Counted from the first letter of the whole stretch, positions 27,812 through 61,300 are shown. The stretch is 63,477 nucleotides of DNA, filler included, from Aduncisulcus paluster (GCA_024181965.1; 7 parts of 7 records of this genome joined end to end with filler, not necessarily neighbours in it), one strand, 5' to 3'. Program-made: numbers and translations. The notes: generated from the letters alone by a model not told the origin.

Positions 27812-28591
27812 ATTATTTAACTAACACTAAAATAATAAAATAGGGATGATAGAGGAATATATATGATTGGTATTTGCTGAAATATACAAAATTTAAATTA
27901 AAATTTTCAAATGAATTAAATTAGGAAAAAAATTGTTAGGTCTAAGACAATTAATCAATTTTTTATCAAAATTCAAACTTTGTATGAGTTGTCGAATTGT
28001 AAACCAAGAAAGATCATAAGTTCGACTTCAAGTCGACTGAAAGTTTCAGTGAAGATGATGAAATAATACATTATTAATACAAAATCTACTAAATTTAAGA
28101 GTAATATAAATTATTAAATTATTTACTATTGCTTACCATCCTGGTAGGTGATGATCACTGAAGGTGCCACCAGTGGTGGATTTTATTTATGTGACGGCAA
28201 ACTCTGCTTTGTGCGAAAAGTAATAAACAAAGACTTCCTTTTGATAAGTGATATTTTGCTATCTAAATTTTTCTTTCAGAAAAACTTCAGTTTTTGGTTT
28301 AAAACAGAGGTCTCCAGACACGTCATACAGGCGGTCTGGGATCAGTTTCCAAAGTCTTCATTTCATAATCCTTGAGACAGCACAGCTCTCTGCGACATAA
28401 TGTACATCCAAGCCGGAACAGGAGTCTTTCTTTCCACCTCCTGCTCCTCTCACTCCTAGAGTCCCCAGGCGTGTTGAAATCAGATGCTTGCATTGCGATT
28501 CCATGAATGAATTTCAGAGAATAAGTGCCGACAGACGCAAGGGAATAAAAGAACATTGTCCTTCTTTGCAGAAAATATCAGTATTATCGGA

Positions 28592-30426: not shown

Positions 30427-30590
30427 TGCCAGCTCCTGATTATACGATACATTTAATCTGAGATTTGTGATCTGTGATCCTTGTCTTTNNNNNNNNNNNN
30501 NNNNNNNNNNNNNNNNNNNNNNNNNNNNNNNNTTAATTAATTAANNNNNNNNNNNNNNNNNNNNNNNNNNNNNNNNNNNNNNNNNNNNTG

Positions 30591-41870: not shown

Positions 41871-41970
41871 NNNNNNNNNNNNNNNNNNNNNNNNNNNNNN
41901 NNNNNNNNNNNNNNTTAATTAATTAANNNNNNNNNNNNNNNNNNNNNNNNNNNNNNNNNNNNNNNNNNNN

Positions 41971-43426
41971 GTTAATATTATAATAAGGGAATATTTACAA
42001 GACATGTCATCATGTTGAATATTATAAATAAATTGGCCCACAGGAAAAGTATTATTATTTTTTATTGAAGGGAATTTAAGAAGAACTGCACAGATTTCCC
42101 AAGATTATCATCTGTAGTCTGATTTATTTTACAAAGCCCTTAAAACAGAAATGACATTATCAGGCATAATCAAAATCTTAAATAAGCATAATATTCAGAA
42201 ATGTCATATATCAGCGATCATTACTGATAGGGAAAAGATCATGGTGAGTATTGCTAACCAGTTGTTATCTGAAGGCTATGGATTTGTAGTTACCCATTGT
42301 TCTGTCCATATTGTTAATATTATAATAAGGGAATATTTACAAGACATGTCATCATGTTGAATATTATAAATAAATTGGCCCACAGGAAAAGTATTATTAT
42401 TTTTTATTGAAGGGAATTTAAGAAGAACTGCACAGATTTCCCAAGATTATCATCTGTAGTCTGATTTATTTTACAAAGCCCTTAAAACAGAAATGACATT
42501 ATCATTCTCAGCTCAGGAAGGTCATTCCAGATACGGAATTACAAACATTAAAAAACCGATTCATGAACAAATAAGCTTCAGTTACTTGGTTTCAAATCTT
42601 GAACACACTTAGCCTGTACCGAAAAACATAAATTTCTTCTTCGAGATGTGAGACACACTGGAATATATTGTCAGATTTCACAATAAAGCTGATTAATTTG
42701 TTGAATTTATTGTAAACCAGGCGATTCTGTGCGAAATACCTCTCTGTGCAGTTTGTCGATTTCTCACAACAAAAATGCAAGAAATCATCAAGGATCTTCC
42801 AGCTCCAGTTCCGCTTTGTAAGTCAACATTATATCGAATATCAAAGGAAGAAAGATTTAAATCATTAACTAAGGCGAGAATATCTGCATTAAGACCTCCA
42901 TATTCTATTATTTTAGATAAAAGCTGCTCACATTACAGACCGAGAACAACTTATGGTGAAAATATCACACGATTTGATTGAAGAAGGGTATGGTGACATC
43001 TGGCTACCTTGCATTGCTCACCTCATCAATTCAATTCTAAAAGCATATTTTTCATATTATTTTCCTGCGATTGAACCTTTTTTGGAAGATCTAACCAAAG
43101 TATTCAATAAGTTCGAAAGAGATAATCGAACAATTATCAAGGCTCTGAAATTGCCTATTTTACAATATACTCCAATTCGGTGGAGCTCTCTATTATTGTG
43201 TTATTTGCAGGTCTGTAAAAACTGGGATACTTATTTAAGCATATGTTCAAAGTATATTCGCCAATCTGAGGAAGCAAAAGATGCTACCATTTTTTGGAGA
43301 ATGAAAATTAAAAAATTCAATAATATAATGATTACGAGATTTATACCATACTGTTTAGATGCACTTGAAGCTGCATCGTTTTCAACCGTTTGTTTTGTGT
43401 GTGGTAGCCTAGATTTTATTGAGTAA
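41971..43426 (+). mobile_element. hAT transposase fragments, with 192-bp direct duplication 41971-42162 = 42313-42504
   Basis: ITDREKIM..THCSVHIVN, SIILDK, WLPCIAHLIN and PIRWSSL correspond to hAT D, CxxH and RW motifs. Confidence 0.8.
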
Positions 43427-44484
43427 ATTTGTCAGCATCATTCCCTGGTTGTTTACCACATGTGCACACCGGTGTAATTATTATGAAGATATTTCTATAA
43501 ATCATTAGTTATACCTTCTTCTGATTCCGTTGCATACAGAAGCTCAGTAGGGTTATTTTGTTCTTTTGAATTAGAGATAGTTCCTATTTTGTGAGTGTGT
43601 CTCGAACTAAACTCCTGACAAGAGACATGCAGCACGTGATTTTCGATCTAAAGCTTCATTTCAAATCCCGTTTCGTCGAGTTTCTTGGTCTTGCTTTCAT
43701 CAACGGAAATTTTCGAATTCTGAAGAACTATCTTCTGCAGTGACGGACAACCATCCATAGTATAGTAATAATACTATTAAATAAATAGTATTTATTTAAG
43801 AAAGAAAAACCAAGAGAGAAAAAAATAATTCAGAAATAAACCTAGCCCGTTGGGCATATGGAACTTAATGCTCTGGGCACTGAAGGTCGAGGGAGGAGAA
43901 GTTGTTAAGATATTGATCAGCAAGAATAACAGATGGAAATTAAATAGTACATACAAATGTTGAATGGTATTTCATTCAATTTTATATAAGAGAAACATGC
44001 TTCTTAACTCGAAATCATAACTCTCGGGTTCAATTCCGGAAGTTGAGCAAATTGTTTCATCATTTTTGAGCAGGGTGTGGTTAAATATAACAGAACTACC
44101 TAATGGTGAGCCAATTTATTATATCTGATCGATATGAATATCATTCCGGCATACTACCATATGCCACAGAGGGCAACTCATTTTTTCTCTTTGCATATAA
44201 CACCTTTAACACTTTAAATAATTTAAATATCAATAATAATTAGTATTATGGTAGAAAACAACGTTAAAAAGAAAAAATATATCATAATGTTTCGAATTTG
44301 CGGTTGAAAGTAAAAAATGCAGATTTCGTCGCCGTTGAGAAAAAATTATTACCAAAAGCAAATAGAAAAATAGAATTATATTATAACCATACGTAATATG
44401 TAATTTATATTATTGGTATATACTATATACAGTGGTAGTACCAAAAGTATATCGGTTATAGTACTGTATCCATACTTCTGCTCC

Positions 44485-45870
44485 CTAGAAAAGTATTTCG
44501 CAGCACTCGATCTGAAGAACGGTTACTTTAATATCAAAAGTTTCTGAAAAAACAAGACCCTTGACTACATTTATCACACCGTGGGATTGTTTGAATGGAA
44601 TAGGATACCGTTTGGTTTAAAATCGGCTCCGGCTCATTTTCAAAGGTGTATCAACGGAATTTTCAAAGATCTCATGCCCCTTTCTGTTTAGTTTATTTGG
44701 ACGACATTCTTGTTTTTGGTGAGAACCAAGACGATTTTATCAACAACCTTTCAAAGGTTTTGGACAGATTATCCGAGTTTAACCTATGTCTCAACCTAGA
44801 CAAATGTAAAATCGGAATGAAGAATGTTCGCTATTTAGGTTTTATTATATCGGAACAAGGCAGGTCTTTGATCCAAAGAGATTGGAAAATATGAGGAATA
44901 TCCGTCCACCCGAAAATTTAAAGGAAGTACAGAGCCAAGTGGGGAAATTAAATTTCCTCAGAGAGTTCATACCGAACTATTCAAGGACAGCGGAACCTTC
45001 CGGGTAATGAAGAAAGGATACACCAAATCGTGTTGGGGACCCGAACAATCTTCGGCCTGGAATAGTTTATTATCTTCCTTGGACAAGAAATTATCATTAG
45101 AACATCCTGTGACAGATCTGGGTATCTGGGACTTCTCGAATTGTTTAAAGGATATTATCGTATTTACCCTGCACATTATGCCTGCACAGCATATTCAACC
45201 CACTGATTGAAAAATAAAAATAATATTAAAATAATCATTCTGGTATGACTTTACAAGTCATCACAATCCGACACAAGAAGGAACTATTATTCTTCGGACA
45301 GACGCTTCGACAGTGGGAATAGGAGGAATCCTTCTTCAAAGAGCTACAAGTGGAAAAGAAAAGCTGATAAATCTCTTCTCGCGGAAATTCAATAAGACAG
45401 ACACCCGTTGGAGCACTATAGAGCAGGAAGCTTTCGGTATCTAATATGGAATAATTTCGAACAGGTTTTATTTGCTTGGAAAACCTTTTTAGGTGGAAAC
45501 AGATCACTGAAATCTTCATCACATCTTCAAAAGCGAAGTCCCGAAACTTGTGCGCTGGAGAATGATGATGACTCCTTTTACTTATCATATCAAGCACATT
45601 GTTCAGAGAACCAAACAGCTGATTTTCTTTCGCGAATAGAATTAAAAAACGACTATTCGTCTAAAACAAGGAAAATTAGGACACTAAAAGCTCTTGATAC
45701 GACTACAAAAGGTCCAGAGAAAGATGTTCTACTCAAACAAATTCATTTAGAACTCGGTCATGCTTCGGCAGGGTTAGTTGTAAAAGTTCTCCGCGACAGA
45801 GGATAAATTGGACCGGTATGTATAAAGACGCTGAAAGAGTCATTAAACCGTGCATCTTCTGCAAAAAGAC
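44485..45870 (+). mobile_element. Degenerate Ty3/gypsy pol (RT, RNase H, integrase start), close relative of the intact element at 58354
   Basis: FAALDLKNGY, PFGLKSAP, YLDD, WGPEQS, IHLELGHAS; many frameshifts. Confidence 0.9.
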
Positions 45871-47469
45871 ACAAAAGGGAAGATGTATAAAAACAAATGG
45901 TCACTTGAAGAAGCCCGTATCAAGAAAAAAATTGGAATGAGTGTCCCAGAATACGCAAAGCAGATAAATCGGCATTTATCAACACTAAAAAAATCTATCT
46001 CACAGCAAGCCACTCAACTTAAGGCTTTGGTTGAGATTGGAAAACCCAAACAAATTTCGACTTAGATATAGAAATTGACCATTGTTCTTCTTTTCTAAAG
46101 GTAGCAGATGTATTTGAAAATGAGAGAGAAGATATTGCCGCAAGGATAGCCCTTCGACTGGTTGTGTCCCGCTGTAAGTTTGAATACGAGCATAAAACTA
46201 TAAAATCCAGGAGAAAAGTGCCTTTGAGTGCCAGAAAGGCCATAATAATATCTGAGATAAGAAAAAGCAAATATCATGGCCATTTTGTAAAAGATCTGCC
46301 AAATAGCGACATTTTACTTCTTTTTGAAGATAGAATAGGACAAAAAACTAGAGTTTTCTTTTCGAACGTAAAGGGAAAACCTGCTAGTCTTAAGAAAAAT
46401 TATGACCTATACAAAGGGCAGATGAGCCTAGCAGCGGATGAGGTAGCCTTTATTGATACATATTACGAGAATATGGATAATTTGATGCTTGTGGTGACCT
46501 AGCAGAGTATGGGCCAATCACCACCCACTGGAAGTTTATCATCTCTGAGCCTTTCTTCCATTCGAGAGTCTGATATAACGGAAGATTCTTCCCATGACGA
46601 CGGGGATGATGATTTTTCATCGCTCCGAGATGACCAACCTGATGATCATGAAGGTAATTCTTGAAAACGCTCTCTCCGATGAATAGATTTTAATAAATAT
46701 TATTTAAAATTTAAAAACCATATATTAGCAATGATAAGATCGAAATAGAATGATTTTGTTTTTGAAAATACATTTCAATAAAATCTTTGTTTGAAAACCG
46801 ATTTTTTTCGATATACTATTATGGCAAATCAATTGACACGTTGTTTTTATTATACTGAAGCTCAATTCAGAACAAATACCCTTTCGTCCATGTTAGAAAT
46901 ATCTTCCAAATCGGACCTGGGAAAAAAGAATATATTTCTCCGCTGCCCTTTATGTATGAATTCATTGGGACATACCTGTGCCTTTTCGAAGCGAAAAAAA
47001 TGGGATATTAGAGATTTTACGTGCCAAATATGTGCAGTTTCAAAAGCTTTATTTTTAATCCGCTGTGATTATATTCTGGTTGATCTAATTGATAAACACC
47101 ATGAAAATGATTCGGGCTGCTCAGATGAACAAACTGTTGAAGGCCTCAGCCCTGACGATGATCGCCAGTCTCATGATGAGCACGATGATCATGGCGCTCC
47201 AATAATTGATTTGAGCCAGTTAGTTTCCCGAATGGGAATGGAGATCACAATTATTTTTATAATACTATTAATTTTTAGTTAAAAAATGATTTTTTAATTT
47301 CAAATCCCCCCTTTTCTAACAGGGGTTTTCATATTGTTGTGGATTGTCTGCGTTAAATTGAAAGAAATTTAGCATCAATTATATATGTTATTGACCATCT
47401 ATATTGAAAAGTTAATAGTCAACACCTGCCAGATAGTCACAGTGATGTATTATTAAGTCAAATCAGAAC

Positions 47470-49070
47470 ATTTAAGGAAGCAGTAGTTCTAAAATGCATT
47501 GATATTGGTATCTATTCCCATGGCATGTAAATTCTTAGATCGAGAAATGCAAGAAATAATTCGAGCACTGGTTGATTTTGTACCTTTACACCAATCATCA
47601 ATGTATGATATTGAATATAGGCTCGGAAATTCCTCTAAAAATGGTACGAGAGATTATGACAAAATGTTGTTTCTCGATAATTCTTGATAAAACCCAATCT
47701 AGAATGAAGAACATTCTACTAGAATATCCCTAGTAGGGATATTGATTCATATACTTTCGGATCTTTTGCCGTTGGATATATTAATCTTGGAGGGAAAAAA
47801 GACTCTTTATTCACACAAGCTTTCATGAGCGAAATCACCATCTGTGATGGCATCTCAGGATTTAGAAGAAACAAAAGTGAGTAAACGACATGCAGCAACG
47901 ATAAGTTTTATAATAACAAATATTAATCATAAATTAGCATGTTATTCTGATAAGATCCACGATGTCCTTTCAAAACCAGCTGATTTTTTGACGAAAGCAA
48001 TTAAGAGTGAGTTTGAGGCAATTGGAATTAAAAAATCTTCAATAGTTTCCAATTATTAATTTAAAAATTGTAATGGCCTTGGTTAGCTGGAAAAATCAAT
48101 TTATAAATTTGGATTCATTGCACAACGGCTCCTTTTTTCAGCAGTATTTTGTTTCTGAGAAGAGGCCATACTAATACTGGGATTAGATTCTCTCGGAGTA
48201 ATAGTACTTGTATATTATGTGGAGTGCCGTTAAAAACGAATTGTTCAGCATTGTCTCATTTGCTAACAGTGAAACATTGCAATGGAGAATTGTCATCAAA
48301 ACCAACGCATCAAGAAGAATCTATTCAAGGGAAAAGAAGACATTTAAGAGAACAGGTGGTGGATAGTGCACTATGTGGAATATCAGCTTTTACGATTGCA
48401 AATTTTTTTATTTGAAAATTCAACAGGCGATGCTTGATTTGGGTGAGCCAATGGAATTCAAAAAAGATGCATTATATGATTGCATGCATATGGTAGCATC
48501 AAGATCACTCGAAAGCACTAGAGACAAGGTGTTAAAGGGGTGTTATAGTCTAATTCTAGACAAAACCACCTCGAGGGGGAAAACCATTCTTGGAATACTT
48601 GCACATAGCAAATTAGGAACCTACGTTGTAGGTTATTTGGATATAGGAAAATATAAAGACGAAAATTACTCTAAATCATTTAAGCATTCAATACAACAAT
48701 CATATGCCTCCGAATTTATAGACGATGGGAAATAACATACAACACCAAGAGGGGATAAATTATATTATCACACATGTTAAACAGACTTTAGGATGTTGCT
48801 CGGATAGCATCCGGAAGGGAATGCCATCCCCAGCTGACTTATTGCTTTCTCATTGTATTGATACATTGGAATTAGGAAATCGAATCTAATTGCAATTTGG
48901 CCGGACAGGGAACCATTGATGGTCAATGTTTGTAGTCAGTTGGTTGCAAAAGGGTATGGGATTTCATGGCAACTATGTTTAGCTCATGTATTAAATAGTG
49001 TCAATCAACAATACATTAATTATTACTTTGAAGCTATTAAAGATTTTATTGAATAAATAGTACAGTATAT
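47470..49070 (+). mobile_element. hAT transposase fragments including C2H2/BED-like finger
   Basis: CILC...HLLTVKH, IQGKRRH, YSLILDKTT, PDREPLM...LCLAHVLN. Confidence 0.75.
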
Positions 49071-49089
49071 TGAAAGAACTGCTTCCAAG

Positions 49090-49325
49090 TTTGTTATGAA
49101 TTCTTCGTTTTGTTGTTTTTCCTTTGATTAGTAGGTCATCGATGAATATCAAGCAAGCATGCGGAGTAAGATCAGCGAATGCCTTCTCAATCGATCTCTG
49201 AAAGTGAGCGCTTGTGTTCATGGTTCCAAATGGCATTCTTCTGTTCTGAAACAGCCCCTTGCTGCAAGTAAATGCCAGTAAAGGTTTAGATTCATCTTCT
49301 ACAAGAATTGGATGGAAACCTGAGT
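49090..49325 (-). mobile_element. Ty3/gypsy RT fragment, inverted
   Basis: SGFH..AFTCSKGLFQNRRMPFG...FIDD. Confidence 0.9.
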
Positions 49326-51290
49326 GGCTCACCCAAAAGCAGAAGCGAAATTTATCGTGCGGACTGATGCAAGTACAACAGGAATGGGTGGAGCATTAAT
49401 CCAAAAGGTGGATGGAAAAGAAGAAATATTGTCTCTATTCACAAAGAAATTCACACCAGCGGAAAAGAAATGGAGCACTATAGAACAGGAAGGATATGCA
49501 ATGGTATATGGAATAACAAAGAATATATATCATTTATTAGGGAGGAAATTCTTTGTGGAAACAGATCACTTGAACCTAAAATACATTTATAAATCAGAAA
49601 TACCAAAGCTGGTACGCTGGAAATTACAACTATCTGTTTTCTCATTCACCATTGATCATATTCCTGGAAAATAAAAATACAATTGCTGATTTCCTTTCGA
49701 GAATAGAAACAATCGCAAAACAAAAAGAAAAAACAGCCTGTGGAAACAGAGATAAATAAGGAGAATGATACTCCTAAATTAAGAAAAGAAGCCCTATCAG
49801 CGGAAAAAGTCTCTTCTAGTACATCGGAAGTAGATGATAAGGAAGAATCTCCAGAGATACAGAAAGAAACCGAAGAATCAATAAGAAAATGGCTGAATGT
49901 TGTGCCTTCCTCGGGAACCAGTTCTCGAGAGTATGAGTAAGTCGTAATTCTTCTATGCTCCTGGATAAACTCACCAAGTGGGTCTTGGATGTTTGAAATG
50001 TCCTTTTGGTGGATACTGCCTTCAAATGTTAAGATGTAAGTGATTGTAAATAATAAAGATCATAAGCTTAGAATGTGTATAGACTTCAGAGACTTAAACA
50101 AAATAACCAAACCCTACCATTTTCGCAACTTATGAGAAGCCGGAACAGCGGGAAGAACGAGGCTCGATAGCCAGGGATAAAAGGGAAAACGAAAGAAAAG
50201 AAAACGAAAGAAAATTATTAGAGATGTAAAGGAAGTTAAAATAAGAACAAAACGAAACATACAAACGCAAAATGGAAGTTTGATAAATTGATCAAAATCG
50301 AATAACGATTTGTTCTCAAGGATGAGGAAAGTTGATGAAGAATAGTGCGAACCATTCTTATCCACTTCCTCGTATTGACGAAATACTTGATGGATTATCG
50401 GGCTGCACCATCTTTGGATTGGTTAATGCTCCAAGACATTTCCAAATGGTAATGAATACGATCTTTGCTGATCTAATTGGAGTGAGTTGCTTTATTTATA
50501 TTGACGACATTGATTTTTGGGAAAGACAATGCGGAGTTCCTAACAAATCTAACAAGAGTTATGGAAAGAATTAAGAAGACGAATCTGAAATTAAACGAAA
50601 AGAAATGTGTCGTGGGAGCAATGCAGATCCGCTATTTGGGTTATATCCTTTCGGAGGAAGGTCGAAGAATTGACCCTGAAAGAATAGAAGCATTGGAGAA
50701 GATAAAGATACCTCAAAGCAAAAAAGATGTCAGATCTTTGCTCGGAATGATTAATTTTTGTAGAGATTATATTCCTAATTGTTCACAAATAACCGCTAGT
50801 TTATCGAAAATGATTCATAAAGATGTGGAGTTTGTGTGGACCAGTGAGCAACAAACAGCTTTTGACTCTGTTTTGAGAATTCTAAAGTCAGCTCCTCCTT
50901 TATCTCTTATTCGGGATGACCAGGAGACTTCCGTATATACAGATGCTAGTGACTATAGGTTGGAGGAGTAGTATTACATCATATTTCGAAAGTGGAAAAG
51001 GTTCCACTGTTACTTCACCTCTAAAACATTGACAACTACAGAAAGGAGATGGAGTGTGATCGAGAAAGAACTTTTTGGAATCATTCATACGATCAGAAAA
51101 GCAGAAAAATACCTAAGAGGAAGATCCTTTACTCTTTATGTAGATCACCGAAATATTACCTTTTTGAAACAAACTCCGAATCAGAAAATGATGCGATGTT
51201 ATCTATTTGGGTTCGATTTCTAGATCAAACACGTTGCTGGAGAAGACAATGGAGTAGCTGATGCGTTGTCGCGACTTTTGGAGATAAAGA
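49324..51290 (+). mobile_element. Ty3/gypsy RNase H and RT fragments from several lineages
   Basis: RTDAS..WSTIEQE..ETDH (49324-49700); LRMCIDFRDLN (about 50070); YPLPRID..FGLVNAP..YIDD..YTDAS..WSVIEKE..VDH (50345-51280). Confidence 0.9.
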
Positions 51291-51559
51291 AACAGAAGAA
51301 GAAAGAAACTTTACATTTTATAAAAGAAGGAGCTAAAATCCTGTCTGATGATTCCTTACAGATGAAAATCCTGGCAGAACAGAAGAAAAAGTGGCAAGTG
51401 TCACGAGCTTGGACACATGGCAATTCACTGCCCTAATGGGCAGAAAGAATCGCTTGACTGAGCCAAGCAGGCACTGGCCATACCCGAAGAGAGTAAAGTC
51501 GACTCTCCGTATTTTGACCTTTCCGTTTGGACGACCGAGCAGCCTCTGTTCAAACTCCA

Positions 51560-52634
51560 GCGTTGGTGGACACAGGATCATCTTTGAATCTGATTAGCCA
51601 AGATTTACTTTATAAGTTGACACCCACACAGACGCTGGGCATTAGAAGAAGCAAGTGCATGATTGAGCTTGCTGACGGGTCAAGAATTGGACGAGGAGCA
51701 AGATGTTGTTATAGACAGTGAGGATGATGATGAAGACATTGTAGAATTTGTGGAAAGCCAGGACATGTTGAAAAGCGAGGATGTGGAGATTCAGGTAATG
51801 ATGCATCAGGCATTTAAGGAGTATCATGAAACGGTAAAGTCGTTGGAACCGGCCAGGGTGCATCCGGTGGTCCTCGAGTTGATCGGGGGAGCTAAGGAAG
51901 TTGCACAACCCCCAAGGAAGGTCCCGTATCATTATCAAGAGTTAGAAAGAGAGATGATTACTGACTTGCTGAAGAAAGGATTCAGGAAGAGTTCGAGTTC
52001 ATTTGCAAGCCCGATACTTCTGGTACCAAAGAAAAATGGTCAAATGCATATGTGCATCGATTATAGAGAGTTGAATAAGCTCTTGGTACATAATCGTCAT
52101 CCAATTCCGCGACCGGAAGATCTGTTCCAAATTCTTCAAGGAAAGAGTTGGTTTGCATCATTTGATATAAAGAATGGATATTATGCTTGTACACTTGCTA
52201 GAGAAAGCCAAGAAATAACTGCGTTCTGCACACCATTCGGTTTATATGAATGGTTAAGACTCCCGTTTGGTTTGAAAATTGCACCGGCTTATTTTCAAAG
52301 AATTATGACGGATATGTTAGGAGACTTACGAAGTCAGGGAGTGGTCGTGTATTTAGATGATATTTTAATTTGTGCCGAAACGAAGGAAAAGTTGGTGGAG
52401 TTAGTGAAAGAAGTTCTGAGAAGACTACAAGAAAAGAACTCGATCATTAATGTGGGGAAGTCGTTTGTAGGAAAGCAAAAGATTAGATTTTTGGGATTCG
52501 AGTTCTCTGAAGAGGGAAAAAGGATTGTAGAGGACGAGTTCAAGCGGTGATGGAAATGGCTAGACCCACTGACAAAAAGGGTGTCAGGAGGTTCCTTGGT
52601 ATTTGTAATTATGTGCGGGATTTTGTGCCACGTA
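51560..52634 (+). mobile_element. Ty3/gypsy protease-RT fragment
   Basis: ALVDTGS, MCIDYRELN, LPFGLKIAP, YLDD. Confidence 0.92.
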
Positions 52635-52911
52635 NNNNNNNNNNNNNNNNNNNNGAAGGAAAAGTTGGTGGAGTTAGTGAAAGAAGTTCTGAGAAGACTA
52701 CAAGAAAAGAACTCGATCATTAATGTGGGGAAGTCGTTTGTAGGAAAGCAAAAGATTAGATTTTTGGGATTCGAGTTCTCTGAAGAGGGAAAAAGGATTG
52801 TAGAGGACGAGTTCAAGCGGTGATGGAAATGGCTAGACCCACTGACAAAAAGGGTGTCAGGAGGTTCCTTGGTATTTGTAATTATGTGCGGGATTTTGTG
52901 CCACGTATGGC

Positions 52912-54545
52912 TGTGTAACTTCTCAGTGATCTATATTTAGAACCTTGATCGCTCCGATCACTTTTATTCAATAAATTGCTAACAACCTACAATATTAATA
53001 TTAATTGGTTGAAAATTTTTGTATGACAAAGGATTCAGCAAAAGTAACGAGCGTTATTACTGCCGAAATGGCTCCTAAAATGCCCAGGTTGGAGGACTTG
53101 ACGAGTACCAAGTGGAGCGAGTTTATGAACGACTTCGACCATTACCGTACGCTGGGAGGCTTGAAAGAATGGCCGGAAATGGTTGACATTACCGTATTAG
53201 GGATCATAAGAGACCTGGAGGGAGTATCAGAACTGAGGACGACAGCGTCAAGAAAAAAGGCGAAGACAATGGTAGATAAGATCTTCGGGGCGAGTTCAAC
53301 GCTCAACTTGTACGACGAACTACGTCAACTGAGCATGAACAGGGAACTTGCAATGGACGCTTTAATGAGATTTATCAAGGAGTTCAAGGCTGTCAGAAGC
53401 AGAGCTGAGAAGCTCGGAGAGGATAAACCGATCGTGGAGTTGTTTATCGCGGGTCTGTACACGGGCCGTCTAAGAGAATGTGTAAGAGCATGAACCAAGG
53501 AGACACCAATGCTGTTACAGTGGAGTTGAAGAAGATTATTGAGGCAGAATTGACGCATAAGGCTTTAATGAGTGAAAAGTAAGGGTATCGGAACGAAGAT
53601 ACGAAGTTCAAACAAACATGCCAAGTGTGTCGAGGAAACAATGCCACACAGCAAGGGATTGTTGGCACAACAAGGGGAAAAGAAGGTTCTCATCAGCAGC
53701 AGAGAAGACAAGGACATCAACTACGTTCAAAAAACCAAAAAGGGGAGCCCAGTGGGTAACAAGTAAGGACCCACAAAGGAGGAATTGGGCAGAGGTAAAG
53801 AAGAAATTAATTGCGAAATAGAGGAATTGGAAGGAGCCATAAGGGATATGATAACGGATTACGAAAGGAAAATCGATAGAGAAAAGCCTGCTAAGGTCAG
53901 ACCTTTTGAGCTCAAACTTAAGGAAGGAACAAGGCCAATCAATATCAAATGAAGAAAAGTTCCAATTCACCTAAAGGATAAGGTAGAGGAGAAATTAAGA
54001 GAATTACTGGATAGGGGATTCATAAAAAGGAAAAGTAACTCCTTCTCAGCGTCATTGTCGATTCAGTGGAGGAAGTCTGGGGAGATGCGACTTTGCATCG
54101 ACTACCAACAGTTGAACAGAGCGACTTGTGAAGAAAAATACACAACCTCAACCCCAGATGAATTATTCAAGATGTTGGAAGAATATAAAACAATCGCGGC
54201 GATCAATCTTAAATCAGGATATTATAATGTTGCAGTTAAGAAGGAATCCCAAGATAAATAGGCGTTTTCGTCACCTTTGGGGACATTCGTATGGAAAAGA
54301 ATGCCGTTTGACTTACGTACAGCACCTGCACACTTTCAGGAAATTATGACGGGGGTTCTAAGTGATATCATAGGAACTGGTTGCTACGTATACCCGGACG
54401 ACATTTTGGTCATGGGTAGAACGGATGAAGAATTTTTTTGTAATCTGAAAATGGTAATCGGAAGACTTGCGGACGCGAAATCTATATTTAATTACAAGAA
54501 AACGAAATTTGTAACAAGGTCAGTGACGTATTTAGGATACGTACC
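52912..54545 (+). mobile_element. Degenerate gypsy element: LTR end, gag with zinc knuckle, protease deleted, RT
   Basis: Gag WSEFMNDFDHYRTLGG ~ intact WKTFMKEYEHYRTLGG; knuckle remnant C..HTARDC; RLCIDY, MPFDL, YPDD. Upstream DNA resembles 58255-58340. Confidence 0.88.
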
Positions 54546-54604
54546 TAGGATTACTATTTATCTGGATATTATTACTAATATGGTAGTACCAGAAATAACA
54601 CCCC

Positions 54605-55455
54605 AGAAGGAGAGGGGGGAATGAGGAAATTTCTTAATTTGAAAAGGATTATGGAAGGAAAAGAAATAATTACAAGGCTACAGAGTGATTCAAAAGGAGT
54701 TAGAGGATCTTGTGATAGCAAGAAGGAAGATAGCAAAAATGAAGGATTCTTGGAAAATTGTGGCGAATGCTAGCTCTTGGAGCTTGCGAGCCTTCCAGAA
54801 CTCGCATACGAGGCTTATACGAGGTCATTGTAGACCTGAAACAATAAATTGTAATACAGAAGACTCTTCGGAGGTTGGCTGAATCACAGTATTAATACTA
54901 CTAGTATTATATAGTATATAAACAGCTAAAAATTTTATACTTAAATAGGGAAGTGAAAGGATAATGTTATCAATGGATTATAAAATCCCTGAGTTAAGGG
55001 CCTGGTCAAAAGATAATTGGAAGAAATTCACGGACGAAGTCAGACTTTATGAAGCAAGAGGTCAGAAACGATGGTTCAATTTAGGTGATCCGGTGTTGTT
55101 GGATACCTTAAAAATGCTTAAAAGAGGTGAAATGACCAAATCCGTAAGGACTATGAGGCGGATCCTAAAGATGCGACAAAAAGTCGAGATTATTTTTTGG
55201 AACTTAAGGAAAAGTTAAATGAAGATATTTCACCAAAAACAACGACTGAATTTTATGATAGATTGCAATCTACGAAAATGGAACATTTTTTAAGGAAGAA
55301 TTCTTTATGGATTATCTGGTAGAGTTCCAACGTGAGATAAAGGCTTTCTCATCATTTGGATCGTTCGACGTTGTTAAAATATTCATTAAAAGTCTCTGGC
55401 CAAAGAGATTTGGCGATAGGGTACGAAATGAAGTAGAAACATTAAAAACGAAATG
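54605..55455 (+). mobile_element. Polypurine tract, candidate LTR (about 54622-54888) and degenerate gag
   Basis: AGAAGGAGAGGGGGGAA then TG; AATAAA near 54843; ...CA at 54886-54888; gag NWKKFTDEVRLYEARG and IFIKSLWPKR. Confidence 0.6.
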
Positions 55456-55569
55456 ACAGGCTTCAGAAAAGAAAAAGAAGATTAAGTTAGATCCTTTGGG
55501 ATCTCCTGGTGATACCCAGAAGGAGGATTCAAAATCCAAGACCAAAGGAAAACCTTTGTCGGACTTTGG

Positions 55570-55830
55570 GGCGGTGATTGTTGCTGCCCGGACGGAGTGG
55601 GTGGAACTTGTAGCGGCACCTTCAACAACCGCGATCTCAGCTGATGATGCGATCTTTGGGAACATTTTCTGCAGATTTGGAGCCCCTCATCAGATTCGAA
55701 GTGATAACGGTACTCAGTATGTAAACAAGGTAATTAAGGAACTGATGAAGATGACCGGTCAAACACAAAATTACTTTACCATACCACCCCAAGGAAATAG
55801 CATCTGCGAGAGAATTAATGGAGAGGTTAC
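55570..55830 (+). mobile_element. Retroelement integrase core fragment
   Basis: FGAPHQIRSDNGTQY...GNSICERIN (second D and E of DDE). Confidence 0.88.
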
Positions 55831-56210
55831 TCGAATTTTACGATTTCATCGAAGGAAGCTCCCACTGGGTTCAACTTTCATTCGGCCACATCGTTCTGCT
55901 TACTGCAATTGCCAATCAATTTATACACGAGGCACAAGTGGCATCTACTGATAGCGATTGTGAGAAAGTAATTGAGAATTATAAGAATTTTCTTGATATT
56001 CTCTCTCCCCTTTGTGCGAAATGCGATATTTTCTCTACGTCAGCCCCGATTCGTAAGATAAAAACGCATCTTCTGCTCCACATTCAACAATGGGTCAGAT
56101 ATGGAGGCTCATTATACAACTATTCTGCCGAGGCTGGAGAGCGAATGAACTCTTCAGTGTTCAGGCTATATAGGTATATACGTACACAGTCTACAAGACA
56201 TGTATGATTG
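55830..56210 (+). mobile_element. DNA-transposase fragment (CMC/EnSpm- or Plavaka-like)
   Basis: KIKTHLLLHIQQWVRYGGSLYNYSAEAGERMN fits the H-x-L-x-H...G...E-x2-N pattern. Confidence 0.65.
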
Positions 56211-56509
56211 GTTCCTTATCATTACCTTTCTTGCTTCCCGACTCTGACTCCACTGAAGCTGCGTCAATTCGATTCCAACGAGGAAAGTGTTATTTTTTTG
56301 CTACAGAAGAATTGGATGATAGTGTGATAATGGTTTCATCACTTTGTGAAGACAGGAATTGTTCATGGTTCCATTTACACTTATCATTCGCCTGCATCGA
56401 TTGGTCATGGGGTGAAACATCAATAGGGTAACAGACACGAACTTTTCAAAATGACAAAAAATTAACATTAATAAATATTGATAAACAAATAATCCAATTA
56501 AATTTATAA

Positions 56510-56900
56510 ATGGAAGTGCCTGATATATTTATTTCAAATATTTTGAGTCAAACTTGGAGAAAAGAAACCATCCTTGAAAAACTTTACAAAATACACTCAA
56601 CCCTCACATCTCAAGAAATCAGGACTCACTTATTGCGCAGCCTCAAAATTACAAAAGATGAAAAGATTATTTGTATTTTATGTCATTCTAACCCTTTTTT
56701 ATTTAATTCTAGATCAGCTGCCTCTCATATTTCCTCTTCAAACCATCTTCATTTATTTAAGCAGTCTCTAAAACCTACTCCAATTCAAGGTAAAAGACGA
56801 CATGCTGAGGAGGTAATTATGCTCAAAATGCTAAAACATGGAATGAGCCTGAATCACATTAGTGATTTATTCGATACATGAAATCGAACGAAGGGGTAAA
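56510..56900 (+). mobile_element. hAT-family N-terminal zinc-finger fragment
   Basis: CILC...HISSSNH then IQGKRRH, shared with the 48149 fragment that leads into hAT catalytic motifs. Confidence 0.7.
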
Positions 56901-57636
56901 TTTGAGAAATCAAGCCATTACGAAAAAAACAACACATTATCTAGGACCAAATCAGAGAAAAATTAACCGATTAATAGAGATTGGGAGCTTTATTCCGCGA
57001 ATTTCAGATATTTTAGTTCGGTTAGTGTTGGTTTAATAACCTTTATAATGATGGTGGAGCAAATTTATTAATTTGGGAATAAAGAAATGCGCGAAGAGAA
57101 GTAAAAAAAGTGATCTGCAAAGAACACAAAAACTTCCAGATGTGATCTTCTGTAATAAGATAGTAATAAACATTCTAATATCGAAATAAATATATTAATT
57201 AAAATCGTATTATAAAATATATATTAAATATTCAATAATAATACCCCTTAAAGAAAATAATAAAAACGTCTGCTTTTGGCAACAGCCGTGTTATTCTAAC
57301 ACTGCCCCTCCTTTCAAAGGGATTAACAATAAATAATGCGGATGTTCCAAAACGTTATTTCTTCTTCCTGCCTCTTTTCTTGGAAGGACGTTCCCCACTC
57401 TGAATCACCGCAGAAAAGATTTCGGGGTGTTGTAATAAGTAAATTTCAAATNNNNNNNNNNNNNNNNNNNNNNNNNNNNNNNNNNNNNNNNNNNNTTAAT
57501 TAATTAANNNNNNNNNNNNNNNNNNNNNNNNNNNNNNNNNNNNNNNNNNNNGCTGAAATGCCACGGACAGCACTGTAAGCCACGGGTCGGTGCATCCGAA
57601 GATTCCATAAAAGCCAATGCCATATGATAGCTGCAA

Positions 57637-57900
57637 GTTTGTTGTTGTTGTTGTTTGTCGTGTCCCTGGATATGTTGTTGTTTGTGTTGGATTCTGTTGT
57701 GTCGAAGCCAGTTGTTGTGTTGTGTTGTTGTTGTGTTGTTGTGTTGTGTTGTTGTTGTGTTGTTGTGTTGTTGTTGTGTTGTTGTGTTGTTGTGTTGTTG
57801 TGTTGTTGTGTTGTTGTTGTTGTGTGTACGCCATATGTCGTGTTATGTGTTGTATGTGTACGCCATTTGATTGTGATTGTATGTGTGTTCATGTTTGCAT
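57637..57900. repeat. Irregular (TG/TTG)n simple repeat
   Basis: gttgttgtgttgtgttgttgttgtgttgtt... core at 57711-57827. Confidence 0.9.
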
Positions 57901-57980
57901 TGATGCTGTATGCGTCATGCGCCCATTTTGATCAGAATACCGACCGTAGCCGGTATATGCTACACGAACGGATCTGAGAG

Positions 57981-58340
57981 TGTTGTTTGCTTAAATAATA
58001 GTTGTTTGTTGACGCCAAGAGAATGATCACGAAGAGGAAAACAGGGTTTCGGCCATGAGATGACCTCTTCAAGTGAGAGGAGGATGTGGTGACCATTCTC
58101 AGGGACATTCTAAAAATAGATTGGTTCGCTCGAGATCATCGACGAACTTCCGAAACCAAAGGAAAATATACTTTCCCAGATCAAAACTGATTTCGAGAAA
58201 ATAGGAATAATGAAACGAAAGATAGTTGGAATTGTTAGTGACAGAGAACCTTGTTAGTTTCTCAGATCTATTTATAGAACAGATGGTCATCCCGTTTATT
58301 TGAATAAATTGTATACCAGTTTAAGCTTAAATTAGCAACA
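57981..58340 (+). repeat. Candidate 5' LTR of the chromovirus (start 57981 or 58007)
   Basis: TGTTG...CAACA termini, AATAAA at 58303, and 3' part similar to 52912-52984. No second copy available to fix the boundaries. Confidence 0.45.
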
Positions 58341-58353
58341 ATAATATTATTGA

Positions 58354-61300
58354 ATGCCCAAACATGGTAAAATCATTAGAATTGGCGTAGCCAAAATGAA
58401 GGAAAAAGAGGTTCCGACTCCTTACCTAGAATCCCTCGATTCAGAGAACTGGAAGACGTTCATGAAGGAATACGAGCACTACCGTACGCTTGGAGGCCGC
58501 CGAGCTTGGCCGTTTTTATGTTCTTCTAAGGCTTTAAGGTTAATCTCAATCATCGCCAATATCAAGGATTTCTCCAACAGAGAAAACCGAATCGCAGCGA
58601 AAGGGAAGGTCGGAAAGGTTTACAGAGGCGATTCTCCCCAGAGCCTTTCAGATACTCTAAAAGGAATAAGAATGGAGCACTCTTTAACAATGAAGGCAAT
58701 ATCCGATTATATATCCGATTTCGACACGAGTCGAAGCCTTGATCCAACTGCTTTGGAAGGGAAAGCGTTCGTGAATCTCTTTATTGGAGGTCTCTTTCCA
58801 CCCAGATTAAGAGTCCGCGTTCGTACCGCTATCGGTCCGGACAGCGAGGACGTTGAGGAGGCTATAAGACAGTCCCTAGAACATGGAAGTGATTTGGTTC
58901 GTTGTGTAGAGGAAGGCCGCGTTGTTCTGAAACAACTAGGCTCAAGGGAACAAGGAAAAGACTCTAAACCTACTCCTCCACGCCACGACTCGAAACCAGA
59001 GGAAAAAGAAAAATCAGACCGCCCCAGGAATGCTTTTGGTGGTAAAAGAAGGAAGTTCCATTCAAAGTTCAAACCGAGTCCTACTAAAAAACAATCTCAC
59101 GCGGGGTTACAGCAGGACAAGCCCGTTGGAAAGAAACCCAAGTTCCTAAAGGGGATTTTCTGCAAAGACTGCCACGAAGAGGGTCATTACAGCTATAACT
59201 GCCCACTTCGCAGTAAATCCAACGGTAAGTATCTTTTTAATATTAACGGAACCGATCCCTCAGTTAAAACAGCCTTTATCTCGGGTTCGTCGGATAAAGA
59301 ATTTAAAGTCTCATATTTATTAGACACAGGGGCAACCCAGTCGGTTATCACAGACAATACAGTTAAAAGGTGTGGCTTACAATCAAAACCATCGCATATC
59401 AAAGAAGTTTTCCTTGCGAACGGGAGTTCCATCCCTGTTTTAGGATATGTGGAAATTAACATACGTCTTCTAGGCCCTGATGGAGCCAGCATAACGTTTC
59501 CGGACTCTTGCCTTATCATCGAACAAGTCTCTGATAGATCTCCAAATTTACTAATCGGCGAGGAAAAGATCACATCACAGTCCTTATTCGATTGGCAGGA
59601 CCCACAGGTGGAGGAGAATTCGACTTTTATTGAAGATGAATTATATGAAGAATTAGTTTCTCCCTTGGACGACATGGGTTCGGAATGGGAATGCGAAATC
59701 GACGAATTAATTCCAGAAATAACGGAACTCTTGCATCAATATTTCGGAAAAATCGATAAGAGAAAGCCTGCGAAAGTGCCAACCTTCAGTTTATTATTTC
59801 CCCCCGACAAACGTCCTCCGGCCATGAAAGCGAGAAGAGTACCATTCCACCTCCAATCGGAAGTTAAATCCCTTCTCGACGAATTATTGGATTTAGAATT
59901 CATTTCCCCTTCGAAAAGCCCATTCGCAGCACCAATCGTGCTAACGAGAAGAGGAAATGGACAGCTGAGGCTGTGCTGTGACTTCACGAGGTTAAACCAG
60001 ATCACCCCAAATGACCAGTACCCGATCCCAAGACAAGACTCACTTTTCACAGCTTTGGCTGGAAAAACGGTATTTGGTGCCTTAGATCTGCGTCGAGGCT
60101 ATTTCAACATTGAAGTGGCTAAAAATACGAAACATGTCACAGCATTTATAACGCCGTGGGGTTTATTCCAATGGAATCGCATGCCATTTGGTCTAAAGTC
60201 AGCCCCAGCCCACTTCCAACGCTGTGTGAATAATATATTCAAGGATTTGACACCGTGTTGCTGCCTGATTTACTTGGACGACATTCTTGTATATGGGAAA
60301 GATAATGCGGAGTTTATGGCGAATTTGAAAAGAGTTTTGAACCGCCTGGCGGAGTTTAACTTTTGCTTGAACTTGTCGAAATGCAAAATAGGCATGAGGG
60401 AGGTTAAATACTTAGGCTTCATTATTTCTGACAAGGGCCGCAGAATTGATCCTAAAAAGTTGGAAGATTTGCGAAATTTGACCGTTCCAAAATCTCTCAA
60501 AGACCTGCAGAAGATGGTCGGTAAGATAAATTATCTCCGTGAATTTATCCTCGACCACTCCAGGGTTGCCGAGCCTTTAACGAGAATTATGCGGAAACCA
60601 TTTAAATCTTCAGCATGGGGTCCCGAACAATCCGCAGCTTGGGTGAAGATTTTGGAGCAATTAGAACGCTGTATCACCTTGAACCACCCATCATCGACTG
60701 GACATTTTATTGTACGAACAGATGCTTCCAATTCAGGCATTGGTGGGATCTTGCTGCAAACGGACCATTTGGGAAAGGAAAAACTCATCAACCTTTTCGC
60801 ACGTAAATTCAACAAGACGGAATCAAAATGGAGTACTTGCGAACAAGAAGCCTTCGGGGTCTTCTACGGTATCACTTCGAACGCCTATTTTTTATTGGGA
60901 AAACAGTTTGTGGTCGAAACAGATCACCGTAACTTGGGATATATTTATAAGAGCGAAGTCCCCAAATTGATTCGTTGGAGAATGAAATTATCGCCGTTTT
61001 CATTCTCCATCAAACATATTCCAGGAGCCAGTAACTCTACAAGCGATTTTCTATCTCGTTTAGATGAATTTACTGAACCATCAAGACCCTTGCTGATCAC
61101 CCACAGGGACACCAAAGTATTTTCATTAAAAGCTGGAACACCAGACTCAAACAATTTATTATTAAAGAAAATACACATTGAGTTGGGCCACGCTTCTCCC
61201 AAATTAATGATCAATGCCCTGGTCGAAAGAGGAATAAGGTGGAAGTCAATGGCTATGGACGCCAAGTCGATCTGCAAAACGTGTCTAATATGCCAGAAGT

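What the first reader, a model, noticed from the sequence alone, without database searches (positions are those of the whole stretch)
41971..57451. 15.5-kb co-oriented archive of transposon fragments, resembling a uni-strand small-RNA cluster
Seen: the contig has no clear host gene and no complete element. It is a patchwork of roughly 0.1-1.6 kb coding fragments from several gypsy lineages, hAT and a second transposase class. By my count 14 of 15 recognisable fragments lie on the + strand, the exception being 49090-49325. One fragment (44485-45870) is a close relative of the intact element at 58354. Known: uni-strand piRNA clusters such as Drosophila flamenco are dense, strand-biased transposon fragment arrays transcribed antisense. 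Inference: this may be a transposon-memory or silencing locus in a protist. The fragments may not be independent insertions, so the bias could be overstated.
Basis: partly seen in the sequence, partly recalled or inferred. Interest (0 to 1): 0.8.

Follow-up and report, generated by a model that had tools for sequence, protein, structure and literature searches.

The report
One-strand transposon graveyard in a protist
A 15.5-kb contig, probably from the free-living flagellate Aduncisulcus paluster, is a real patchwork of broken gypsy and hAT-like transposon pieces that nearly all point the same way, but nothing yet shows it is more than an ordinary transposon graveyard.

Summary
The observation largely holds. 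Contig 41971-57451 has no recognisable host gene and no complete element. I count 11 well-supported transposon fragments, or 13 with two tentative ones. They are 7-8 Ty3/gypsy and 4-5 hAT-like pieces. All lie on the + strand except the RT fragment at 49072-49323.

Corrections:
- Fragment 44488-45910 is only about 60% aa / 68% nt identical to the intact element at 58354. Its close relative is an A. paluster polyprotein (76-97% aa).
- The "second transposase class" could not be verified.
- Two exact duplications (around the 20-N gap and at the contig start) look like assembly artefacts.
- The strict minimum of independent insertions is 9, with 8 on +. That gives p = 0.04 (0.003-0.012 with looser counts), before any correction for the scan.

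The silencing-locus reading could not be tested. No RNA holder of the locus was listed, no genome was available to search for Argonaute, Dicer or RdRP, and there are no long inverted repeats.

Best reading (about 0.65): an ordinary nested and deleted transposon island in a fragmented short-read assembly. A uni-strand small-RNA source remains possible (about 0.1).

The parts
41971..42504 (.). Exact 192-nt direct duplication (41971-42162 = 42313-42504) at the contig start. Probably an assembly problem or a 342-bp tandem copy.
   Evidence: 100% identity; one search shows about twice the single-copy depth here and a branch at 42660.
42142..42339 (+). H1a: hAT-like transposase fragment, about aa 278-335 of the full-length-like reference P0125.
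   Evidence: E 4e-10 to 3e-6; weak Pfam DUF659 hit, E 0.0016.
42697..43387 (+). H1b: hAT-like fragment with an internal deletion. It matches P0121 aa 1-53 at 75%, then aa 174-324 at 51%.
   Evidence: phmmer search of its 169-aa ORF.
43424..44470 (.). U1: unannotated segment that is multi-copy in run X1.
   Evidence: summed depth 6079-8219 against a 1144-1290 baseline; no Pfam family.
44488..45910 (+). G1: gypsy fragment running from mid-RT through RNase H to the integrase zinc finger (pol aa 574-996). It has at least 7 frame changes. It belongs to the A. paluster P0002 family.
   Evidence: 76-97% aa to P0002; 67-69% nt to the intact element; frames.
45911..47492 (.). U2: unannotated single-copy segment with two + ORFs of 155 and 166 aa and no recognised family.
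   Evidence: X1 contig 45812-48033 bridges G1, U2 and H2 with 0 mismatches.
47508..48053 (+). H2: hAT-like N-terminal third (P0124 aa 5-193), in several reading frames.
48161..49053 (+). H3: hAT-like fragment with a BED-like finger followed by P0124 aa 12-246 (39%).
   Evidence: E 2e-38.
49072..49323 (-). G2: the only minus-strand piece. A gypsy RT fragment (pol aa 582-670).
   Evidence: RVT_1, E 1.9e-10; 42%; 57% to the RT of P0122.
49324..49668 (+). G3: gypsy RNase H fragment (pol aa 776-891). It abuts G2 head to head.
   Evidence: RT_RNaseH, E 8.8e-25; 59%; 65% to P0003.
50040..51301 (+). G4: gypsy RT to RNase H (pol aa 529-911), 29-43% aa identical by segment to the intact element, with 2 frame changes.
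   Evidence: X1 contig 50274-51440 bridges the G4/G5 junction.
51399..52634 (+). G5: gypsy nucleocapsid knuckle, protease and RT (pol aa 273 to about 732), including a 295-aa open frame. 52655-52907 repeats its end as an assembly artefact.
   Evidence: RVT_1, E 8.9e-35; no long relative above 61% aa; joint 52381 to 52655.
52917..52983 (+). Conserved gypsy 5' leader of about 65 nt. It is high-copy in X1 and similar to 58252-58311 upstream of the intact ORF.
53023..54543 (+). G6: gypsy gag (aa 1-157), knuckle and RT (aa 443-690). The protease is missing. In-frame TGA at 53950 and TAG at 54259.
   Evidence: RT 63-68% to P0147; X1 contig 52954-54621 with 0 mismatches.
54949..55215 (+). G7a: tentative gag-like N-terminus.
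   Evidence: 26% over 80 aa to the G6 gag, E 4e-4 pairwise; no match to P0003.
55574..55849 (+). G7b: gypsy integrase core fragment (pol aa 1020-1112).
   Evidence: rve, E 1.9e-4, below cut-off.
55950..56204 (+). Unverified.
   Evidence: no usable hit.
56621..56872 (+). H4: tentative BED-like finger resembling the one in H3.
   Evidence: 34% over 88 aa, E 2.7e-4.
56964..57451 (.). Very high-copy repeat at the contig end.
   Evidence: summed depth 65684 against a baseline of about 1200.
58147..58251 (+). On the neighbouring contig: a hAT-like fragment directly upstream of, and co-oriented with, the intact gag-pol ORF 58354-62415.
   Evidence: E 4e-5, 49% over 35 aa.

Best explanation
The contig is an ordinary transposon island, or graveyard, most likely in Aduncisulcus paluster (Fornicata).

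At least five different Ty3/gypsy lineages and at least four copies of an orphan hAT-like DNA transposon inserted into or next to one another. They were then cut down by deletions and pseudogenised by frameshifts and stop codons. No dedicated function is needed.

The near-uniform orientation is real in the assembled sequence. On this reading it reflects a small number of independent events, perhaps helped by local insertion or retention bias, and it was picked out of a very large scan.

Shown: the fragments, their strands, their truncation and decay, and their family diversity. Inferred: the insertion and deletion history, and the absence of function.
For: - Every fragment is truncated and broken. 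G1 has at least 7 frame changes. G4, G5 and G6 have 2 each, and G6 also has in-frame TGA and TAG stops.
- Junctions are abrupt and not collinear. RT-RNH abuts knuckle-PR-RT, which abuts gag-RT, followed by gag-like and then integrase.
- There are no LTR pairs and no long inverted repeats. There are no tRNA or Rfam features.
- The fragments belong to different lineages. They are 68% nt identical to each other or less, and their RTs are 29-60% aa identical to each other.
- The contig ends in a repeat of about 50 copies, and short higher-copy stretches separate the single-copy blocks. This is what a repeat-rich region gives in a short-read assembly.
- Other A. paluster gene models (P0051, P0122, P0124) on contigs of 12-23 kb are also mosaics of gypsy and hAT-like pieces. 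Such islands therefore recur in this genome.
- With the strict minimum of 9 independent copies, 8 on +, the binomial p is only 0.039.
Against: - With looser but defensible counts, the bias is 10 of 11 or 12 of 13 (p 0.012 to 0.003).
- The bias holds for two transposon classes with unrelated mechanisms. A hAT cut-and-paste insertion has no known reason to copy the orientation of a gypsy element (my background knowledge, not tested here).
- On the neighbouring contig, a hAT-like fragment is again co-oriented with a gypsy ORF.
- G5 keeps a 295-aa open frame and G6 is only lightly damaged, yet X1 depth over them equals the single-copy baseline, so no other copy at 90% identity or more was laid. 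Single, young-looking relics of otherwise absent lineages are also what a 'trap' locus would hold.
- No genome-wide baseline of orientation was available.
Confidence: 0.65

Rival explanations
1. Uni-strand small-RNA source locus. The region would be transcribed from one promoter on the minus strand into a long precursor antisense to the fragments. That precursor would be processed into Argonaute-bound small RNAs that silence matching gypsy and hAT-like elements. Selection would retain insertions in the antisense orientation.
For: - The contig is a dense patch of transposon fragments with no host gene.
- 10 of 11 to 12 of 13 fragments are co-oriented, across two transposon classes.
- Gypsy-type pieces dominate, as in D. 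melanogaster flamenco, where 79% of elements are antisense and 85% of those are Ty3/mdg4 (PMC10495008, passages read).
- Most fragments are single-copy relics of lineages with no close copy elsewhere in X1. This fits an archive.
- A fornicate relative, Giardia, has an Argonaute homologue and a functional Dicer (abstract), and small RNAs from telomeric retroposons were reported there (passages) (PMC2583053).
Against: - There is no positive evidence of transcription, a promoter or small RNAs.
- There are no long inverted repeats that could give hairpin dsRNA.
- Only G1 has a near-identical relative that small RNAs could target. The other gypsy fragments match nothing at 90% or more in X1.
- The contig is 15.5 kb, against hundreds of kb for flamenco (PMC10495008 abstract).
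- In PMC11437800, the passage I read reports no Dicer or Argonaute in newly sequenced diplomonads. The pathway is therefore not universal in the group.
- I know of no animal-type piRNA cluster in any protist (recalled, not from a search).
Confidence: 0.1
2. Assembly chimera. The contig joins pieces of several repeat-rich loci through shared repeats, so part of the apparent co-orientation across the full 15.5 kb was made by the assembler.
For: - There are two exact duplications, one of them flanking a 20-N gap and collapsed in an independent contig of X1.
- The listed X1 contigs confirm only 7 stretches, about 8.4 of 15.5 kb. They break at 43427-45812, 48033-49470 and 55674-57451, where depth rises 2- to 50-fold.
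- A branch at 42660 leads to a different continuation (table 5).
- The published draft genome of the species with the closest relatives is Illumina-only, with N50 4.6 kb (PMC9933649, whole text read).
Against: - All unique blocks have the same depth (1144-1290), as expected for one locus.
- Four of the breaks are 8-239 nt long. The 8- and 74-nt breaks are shorter than the 150-nt reads of the published draft, and the other two are shorter than its roughly 500-bp fragments (PMC9933649), if the window comes from such data.
- Block 49470-55674 alone still carries six fragments, one of them tentative, all on + (p = 0.03).
- Only the longest pieces were listed (396 more were not shown), so a break in the listing does not show a misjoin.
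Confidence: 0.12
3. Sense-strand capture mosaic. The fragments were brought together by a process that preserves orientation, rather than by independent insertions. Examples are template switching between co-packaged RNAs during reverse transcription, or Helitron- or Pack-type capture of transcribed fragments.
For: - Junctions are abrupt, with no intervening LTR or terminal-repeat sequence.
- hAT-like coding pieces sit in sense orientation directly against gypsy pieces at several places. Here these are H3/G3 and G7b/H4, and 58147-58251 upstream of the intact ORF. Elsewhere they occur inside gene models P0051 and P0122.
- No hAT terminal inverted repeats were found.
Against: - The order of domains is not collinear, as homologous template switching would give.
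- 15 kb is long for a single cDNA.
- There is no Helitron Rep/helicase or other capture machinery on the contig.
- One fragment (G2) is inverted.
- Gene models can only fuse co-oriented pieces, so P0051 and P0122 are a biased sample.
Confidence: 0.07

Closest known systems
Drosophila flamenco (uni-strand somatic piRNA cluster)
   Same: A dense array of mostly Ty3/gypsy fragments with a strong strand bias and no host genes. In D. melanogaster, 79% of elements are antisense (PMC10495008).
   Different: flamenco is defined by a Pol II promoter, a precursor hundreds of kb long and 24-32 nt Piwi-bound RNAs, and it lies in X heterochromatin. None of these could be tested here. This locus is 15.5 kb of a fragmented assembly in a protist whose RNAi gene content I could not examine.
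Dictyostelium DIRS-1 / Skipper retrotransposon clusters
   Same: A protist genome with retrotransposon-rich clusters. In Dictyostelium these yield abundant 21-nt RNAs and are thought to mark centromeres (PMC2175303, abstract and passages).
   Different: Those clusters consist of many copies of one or two families and give small RNAs from both strands. Here there are single copies of many diverged lineages, and no RNA data.
Giardia telomeric retroposons (GilT family) and their small RNAs
   Same: Same eukaryotic group (Fornicata). Small RNAs homologous to telomeric retroposons were reported and proposed to silence them (cited in PMC2583053).
   Different: I recall those as non-LTR elements in telomeric arrays; this comes from no call. 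The same paper judged its own single GilT small RNA to be probably a degradation product.
Nested LTR-retrotransposon islands of plant and insect heterochromatin
   Same: Truncated elements from many families inserted into one another, with no genes. Gypsy-type elements prefer heterochromatin (PMC6911290, background passage).
   Different: In the one plant sample whose passage I read, nested pairs at similar positions were 4 in the same and 2 in reverse orientation (PMC6911290). That shows no strong bias, whereas here 10 of 11 to 12 of 13 fragments share a strand.
Hermes and the hAT superfamily
   Same: A model of the full-length-like relative P0125 matches Hermes transposase. Of 12 PDB matches at E <= 0.001, 11 are Hermes chains. 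Weak DUF659 and hAT-dimerisation Pfam hits agree.
   Different: All Pfam hits are below the curated cut-offs. A PDB sequence-profile search found nothing. No terminal inverted repeats were seen. The lineage has only 6 representatives among 1.84 billion.

Membership tests
Uni-strand piRNA cluster (flamenco type) | Dense transposon fragments with few or no host genes | tested here: met
   About 8.6 of 15.5 kb is homologous to gypsy or hAT-like proteins. No host-type Pfam family occurs in 124 ORFs.
Uni-strand piRNA cluster (flamenco type) | Strong strand bias of the fragments | tested here: met
   10 of 11 well-supported fragments are on +, or 12 of 13 with the tentative ones. Nominal p is 0.003-0.04 depending on the count, uncorrected for the scan.
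Uni-strand piRNA cluster (flamenco type) | A single promoter and a long one-strand precursor antisense to the fragments | not testable with these tools
   No listed holder of the locus is on record as RNA. Contigs cannot show strand or transcript ends.
Uni-strand piRNA cluster (flamenco type) | 24-32 nt small RNAs mapping antisense to the elements and bound by a Piwi/Argonaute protein | not testable with these tools
   No small-RNA data could be reached.
Uni-strand piRNA cluster (flamenco type) | Piwi/Argonaute machinery encoded in the genome | not testable with these tools
   No genome is held for the window. Only one paper in the library holds both Aduncisulcus and Argonaute, and the passages I read say nothing on this.
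Uni-strand piRNA cluster (flamenco type) | Fragments match active elements elsewhere in the genome | tested here: inconclusive
   1 of 7 gypsy fragments (G1) has a 76-97% aa relative. The others show single-copy depth at 90% likeness or more and best matches of 31-74% aa.
Ty3/gypsy (Metaviridae) LTR retrotransposons | RT, RNase H and integrase domains in that order, with gag and protease upstream | tested here: met
   Pfam domains. The fragments map onto the 1353-aa polyprotein in the expected order. The intact ORF also has a chromodomain.
Ty3/gypsy (Metaviridae) LTR retrotransposons | Flanking long terminal repeats | tested here: not met
   No LTR pair occurs in the finding contig. None occurs around the intact ORF within 800 nt upstream and 1060 nt downstream.
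hAT superfamily DNA transposons | RNase-H-like DDE core with an inserted helical domain (Hermes-like fold) | tested here: met
   A model of relative P0125 matches Hermes chains at E 6.6e-6 to 1.8e-4. The model is weak overall (mean pLDDT 60.4, TM 0.24-0.40), though block-of-ten pLDDT means over residues 271-490 are 66-95.
hAT superfamily DNA transposons | Pfam hAT signatures (DUF659 or hAT core, C-terminal dimerisation domain) | tested here: inconclusive
   DUF659 at E 3.6e-6 to 2e-4 and Dimer_Tnp_hAT at E 0.03-0.06 in relatives. All are below the gathering scores.
hAT superfamily DNA transposons | Terminal inverted repeats and 8-bp target duplications | tested here: not met
   Only one weak 39-nt inverted repeat occurs in the contig, and it is unrelated to the hAT-like pieces. 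All copies are truncated, so their ends may simply be missing.
Nested transposon island (graveyard) | Truncated, pseudogenised copies of several families abutting one another, bounded by repeats | tested here: met

The most novel reading that the evidence does not exclude
The contig is part of a uni-strand transposon archive in a free-living fornicate. It would be transcribed from the minus strand and processed into Argonaute-bound small RNAs. It would keep single, lightly decayed relics of gypsy and hAT-like lineages that are otherwise gone from the genome. That would be a functional analogue of an animal piRNA cluster arising outside animals.
Probability: 0.1. Interest if true: 0.8.

Novelty: new member of a known kind. 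Interest (0 to 1): 0.28.

Why it matters
If the strand bias proved to be a genome-wide outlier tied to antisense small RNAs, it would show that "trap" loci for transposon memory evolved outside animals, in a deep-branching protist lineage. It would also give a testable model for this.

As it stands, the value is more modest:
- It documents a diverse set of chromodomain-bearing gypsy lineages and an orphan hAT-like transposon in A. paluster.
- It flags chimeric gene models in that species' annotation.
- It shows how assembly artefacts and non-independent fragments inflate apparent orientation bias.

Tried and rejected
- **Whole-genome access:** none is held.
- **Public runs:** only one holder of the locus was listed (X1, DNA?). 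No RNA holder was listed. X2 is only guessed to be RNA and holds 0.02 of the sampled words. Laid contigs of X2 touch the locus in a few short pieces at depth 2-6. They cannot show strand, and I draw no conclusion on expression from them.
- **Alternative genetic code:** rejected as an explanation for the in-frame stops in G6. The two stops are different codons (TGA and TAG), and host ORFs are long under the standard code.
- **LTR search:** nothing around the intact element or inside the contig.
- **tRNA genes and Rfam families:** none in 41971-63477.
- **Telomere-type repeats:** none.
- **Protein Atlas:** nothing usable for ORFs 55755-56204 and 46035-46499.
- **Word-based homologue search with the hAT-like part of P0051:** only itself.
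- **PDB sequence-profile search with the hAT-like alignment:** 0 hits.
- **Scan of JGI metagenome contigs for hAT-like relatives:** 592 pattern matches, none confirmed.
- **Idea that G2(-) and G3 are one element split by an inversion:** considered unlikely, because their best-matching lineages differ. It is not excluded.
- **Purine skew:** the + strand is 57-62% purine across 49324-55453, including stretches with no homology. I considered a strand-specific mutation signal. It is equally explained by sense-strand coding remnants, so I did not pursue it.
- **Literature on RNAi genes in Aduncisulcus or other Carpediemonas-like organisms:** searches gave nothing specific. Supplementary tables of PMC11437800, which I could not open, may list such genes.

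Full report
**What the window is.** The 63,477-base window is not one molecule. It is seven contigs joined by spacers of 44 N, TTAATTAATTAA and 44 N. There are also 20-N scaffold gaps at 1553, 10299 and 52635. The finding covers exactly one contig, 41971-57451. The five contigs to its left carry long open frames with host-type domains (C2, TPR/TTC21-like, MatE, protein kinase, TMEM231-like). They give no transposon hits. The contig to its right (57552-63477) carries the intact 1353-aa gag-pol ORF with a chromodomain.

**Organism.** The closest named relatives of that polyprotein are Aduncisulcus paluster proteins: P0002 at 57%, and P0003 and P0004 at 42-43%. One fragment of the finding contig is 76-97% identical to P0002. 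Four of the six relatives of the hAT-like pieces are A. paluster proteins. The window therefore most likely comes from A. paluster or something very close to it, a free-living fornicate related to Giardia. The published draft genome of that species is an Illumina-only MaSuRCA assembly of 25,863 contigs, with N50 4.6 kb and BUSCO completeness 40% (PMC9933649, whole text read). This is relevant to how far any 15-kb repeat contig can be trusted.

**Checking the observation.**
- I translated all 124 stop-to-stop ORFs of 50 aa or more (63 on +, 61 on -) and scanned them against Pfam. Retroelement domains occur in 12 + ORFs and in one - ORF (48994-395). Nothing host-like passed a cut-off.
- Mapping ORF pieces onto the intact polyprotein gives seven gypsy fragments:

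| Fragment | Coordinates | Strand | Content (pol aa) |
|---|---|---|---|
| G1 | 44488-45910 | + | RT mid to integrase zinc finger (574-996) |
| G2 | 49072-49323 | - | RT (582-670) |
| G3 | 49324-49668 | + | RNase H (776-891) |
| G4 | 50040-51301 | + | RT to RNase H (529-911) |
| G5 | 51399-52634 | + | knuckle, protease, RT (273 to about 732) |
| G6 | 53023-54543 | + | gag (1-157), knuckle, RT (443-690); protease missing |
| G7b | 55574-55849 | + | integrase core (1020-1112) |

- A gag-like piece, G7a (54949-55215), is only weakly supported (E 4e-4 in a pairwise test against the G6 gag; no match to P0003).
- For the hAT-like pieces I first obtained references. A phmmer search of the 169-aa ORF 42917-43423 against 1.84 billion representatives gave just six hits.
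- These hits carry sub-threshold DUF659 and hAT-dimerisation signals. A structure model of the full-length-like P0125 matches Hermes transposase: 11 of the 12 PDB matches at E <= 0.001 are Hermes chains. The model is weak (pLDDT 60.4, TM 0.24-0.40).
- With these references, hAT-like fragments map to 42142-42339, 42697-43387, 47508-48053 and 48161-49053. All are on +, and there is no minus-strand hit even at E <= 0.5. A BED-like finger at 56621-56872 resembles the one in H3.
- In bases, gypsy homology covers 6178 nt on + against 369 on -. hAT-like homology covers 2050 nt on + against 0 on -.

**Corrections to the observation.**
- G1 is not a close relative of the intact element at 58354. It is 67-69% nt identical and 32-84% aa identical by segment. 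It belongs to the P0002 family.
- The "second transposase class" (about 55950-56204) found no support.
- The 253-nt exact repeat flanking the 20-N gap is an assembly artefact, because an independent contig of run X1 joins 52381 directly to 52655. A 192-nt exact repeat sits at the contig start.
- The "intact element" has no LTR pair within its 5.9-kb contig.

**How independent are the fragments?**
- Five fragments overlap the same RT region (G1, G2, G4, G5, G6). They are mutually 29-60% aa identical in the RT, and 68% nt identical or less apart from one 72-nt stretch at 75%. They are therefore separate lineages, not in-situ duplicates.
- H1a, H1b and H3 overlap one region of the transposase. 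H1b, H2 and H3 overlap another. That gives at least four hAT-like copies.
- The strict minimum is thus nine independent copies, eight of them on + (p = 0.039).
- The 11 well-supported fragments give p = 0.012, and all 13 give p = 0.0034.
- These values are nominal. The locus was picked from a very large scan, and I had no genome-wide baseline.

**Assembly support.**
- Contigs built independently from run X1 cover the contig with 0 mismatches in seven stretches: 42632-43427, 45812-48033, 49470-50200, 50274-51440, 51652-52946, 52954-54621 and 54860-55674. Their depth is uniform at 1144-1290.
- These stretches bridge several fragment junctions: G1/U2/H2, G4/G5, the internal deletion of G6, and the gag-like piece through to the start of the integrase.
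- The listing breaks where depth rises (2- to 50-fold), at 43.4-45.8, 48.0-49.5 and 55.7-57.5 kb. Those joins are unconfirmed.
- Even the best-supported block, 49470-55674, still holds six fragments, one of them tentative, all on +.

**State of the fragments.**
- All are truncated and pseudogenised. G1 has at least 7 frame changes. G4, G5 and G6 have 2 each, and G6 also has in-frame stops.
- Decay is light in places: G5 keeps a 295-aa open frame.
- Over G4-G6, X1 depth equals the single-copy baseline, so no other copy at 90% likeness or more was laid.
- The best matches to any retrieved protein are 31-74% aa.
- Most pieces are therefore single relics of lineages with no close copy elsewhere. 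This cuts both ways. Small RNAs from them would have few targets now, yet a "trap" locus would be expected to hold exactly such relics.

**What bears on function.**
- There are no long inverted repeats, so no hairpin dsRNA source.
- There are no tRNA or Rfam features and no telomere-type repeats.
- Expression, promoter, strand of transcription and small RNAs could not be tested.
- The RNAi gene content of the organism could not be examined (literature searches).
- In the wider group, Giardia has an Argonaute homologue and a functional Dicer (abstract), and small RNAs from telomeric retroposons were reported there (passages) (PMC2583053). Newly sequenced diplomonads, in contrast, lacked detectable Dicer and Argonaute (PMC11437800, passage read).

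**Verdict.**
- The most economical reading is a nested and deleted transposon island of the kind that recurs in this genome. A. paluster gene models P0051, P0122 and P0124, on contigs of 12-23 kb, are similar gypsy and hAT-like mosaics.
- The orientation bias is real in the assembly, it extends to two unrelated transposon classes, and it reappears on the neighbouring contig. It therefore deserves a genome-wide test.
- By itself it does not establish a silencing locus.
- My estimates: ordinary island about 0.65, small-RNA source about 0.10, assembly chimera about 0.12, orientation-preserving capture mosaic about 0.07.

Noticed in passing
window 9463-9562, 11910-12009, 13938-14037, 30489-30588, 41871-41970, 57452-57551: The window is seven separate contigs joined by N44-TTAATTAATTAA-N44 spacers. 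Distances and relative orientations between contigs carry no meaning.
   Followed up: yes
window 57552-63477: The 'intact' chromodomain gag-pol ORF (58354-62415) has no LTR pair in its contig. About 100 nt upstream of the ATG, it is preceded by a co-oriented hAT-like fragment (58147-58251) that ends at the motif SDREP.
   Followed up: partly
window 52917-52983 and 58252-58311: A leader of about 65 nt upstream of gag is shared by G6 and the intact element. It is high-copy in run X1 (one place reaches summed depth about 33,000, roughly 25 times the 1144-1290 baseline), and X2 contigs also match it. It may be the common 5' end of these gypsy elements.
   Followed up: partly
proteins P0051, P0122, P0124 (A. 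paluster gene models): These annotated proteins are chimeras of transposon pieces: gypsy RNase H interrupted by a hAT-like transposase, gypsy pol followed by two hAT-like pieces, and internal tandem duplications. They look like annotation artefacts over transposon islands.
   Followed up: partly
hAT-like lineage (H1-H4; P0121-P0125): This transposase lineage has only six representatives among 1.84 billion proteins. Five are from A. paluster and one is from an unnamed ENA contig. No relative turned up in JGI metagenome contigs.
   Followed up: yes
window 49324-55453: The + strand is 57-62% purine, with GC skew +0.12 to +0.28. This includes stretches without detectable homology (U3, U4). The intact element's ORF has GC skew 0.00.
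   Followed up: partly
window 42660 / 57263: A contig in X1, and one in X2, joins 42660 to 57263 through 25 other letters. Another copy of the left-end repeat therefore appears to sit directly next to a copy of the high-copy right-end repeat.
   Followed up: no
window 57640-57870: A long imperfect (GTT/GTG)n tract lies upstream of the intact element.
   Followed up: no
window 5796-9518 (+), 22589-27820 (-), 13990-16839 (-): Very long open frames (1240, 1743 and 949 aa) without introns and without any Pfam family at E <= 0.001. These are lineage-specific host proteins.
   Followed up: no
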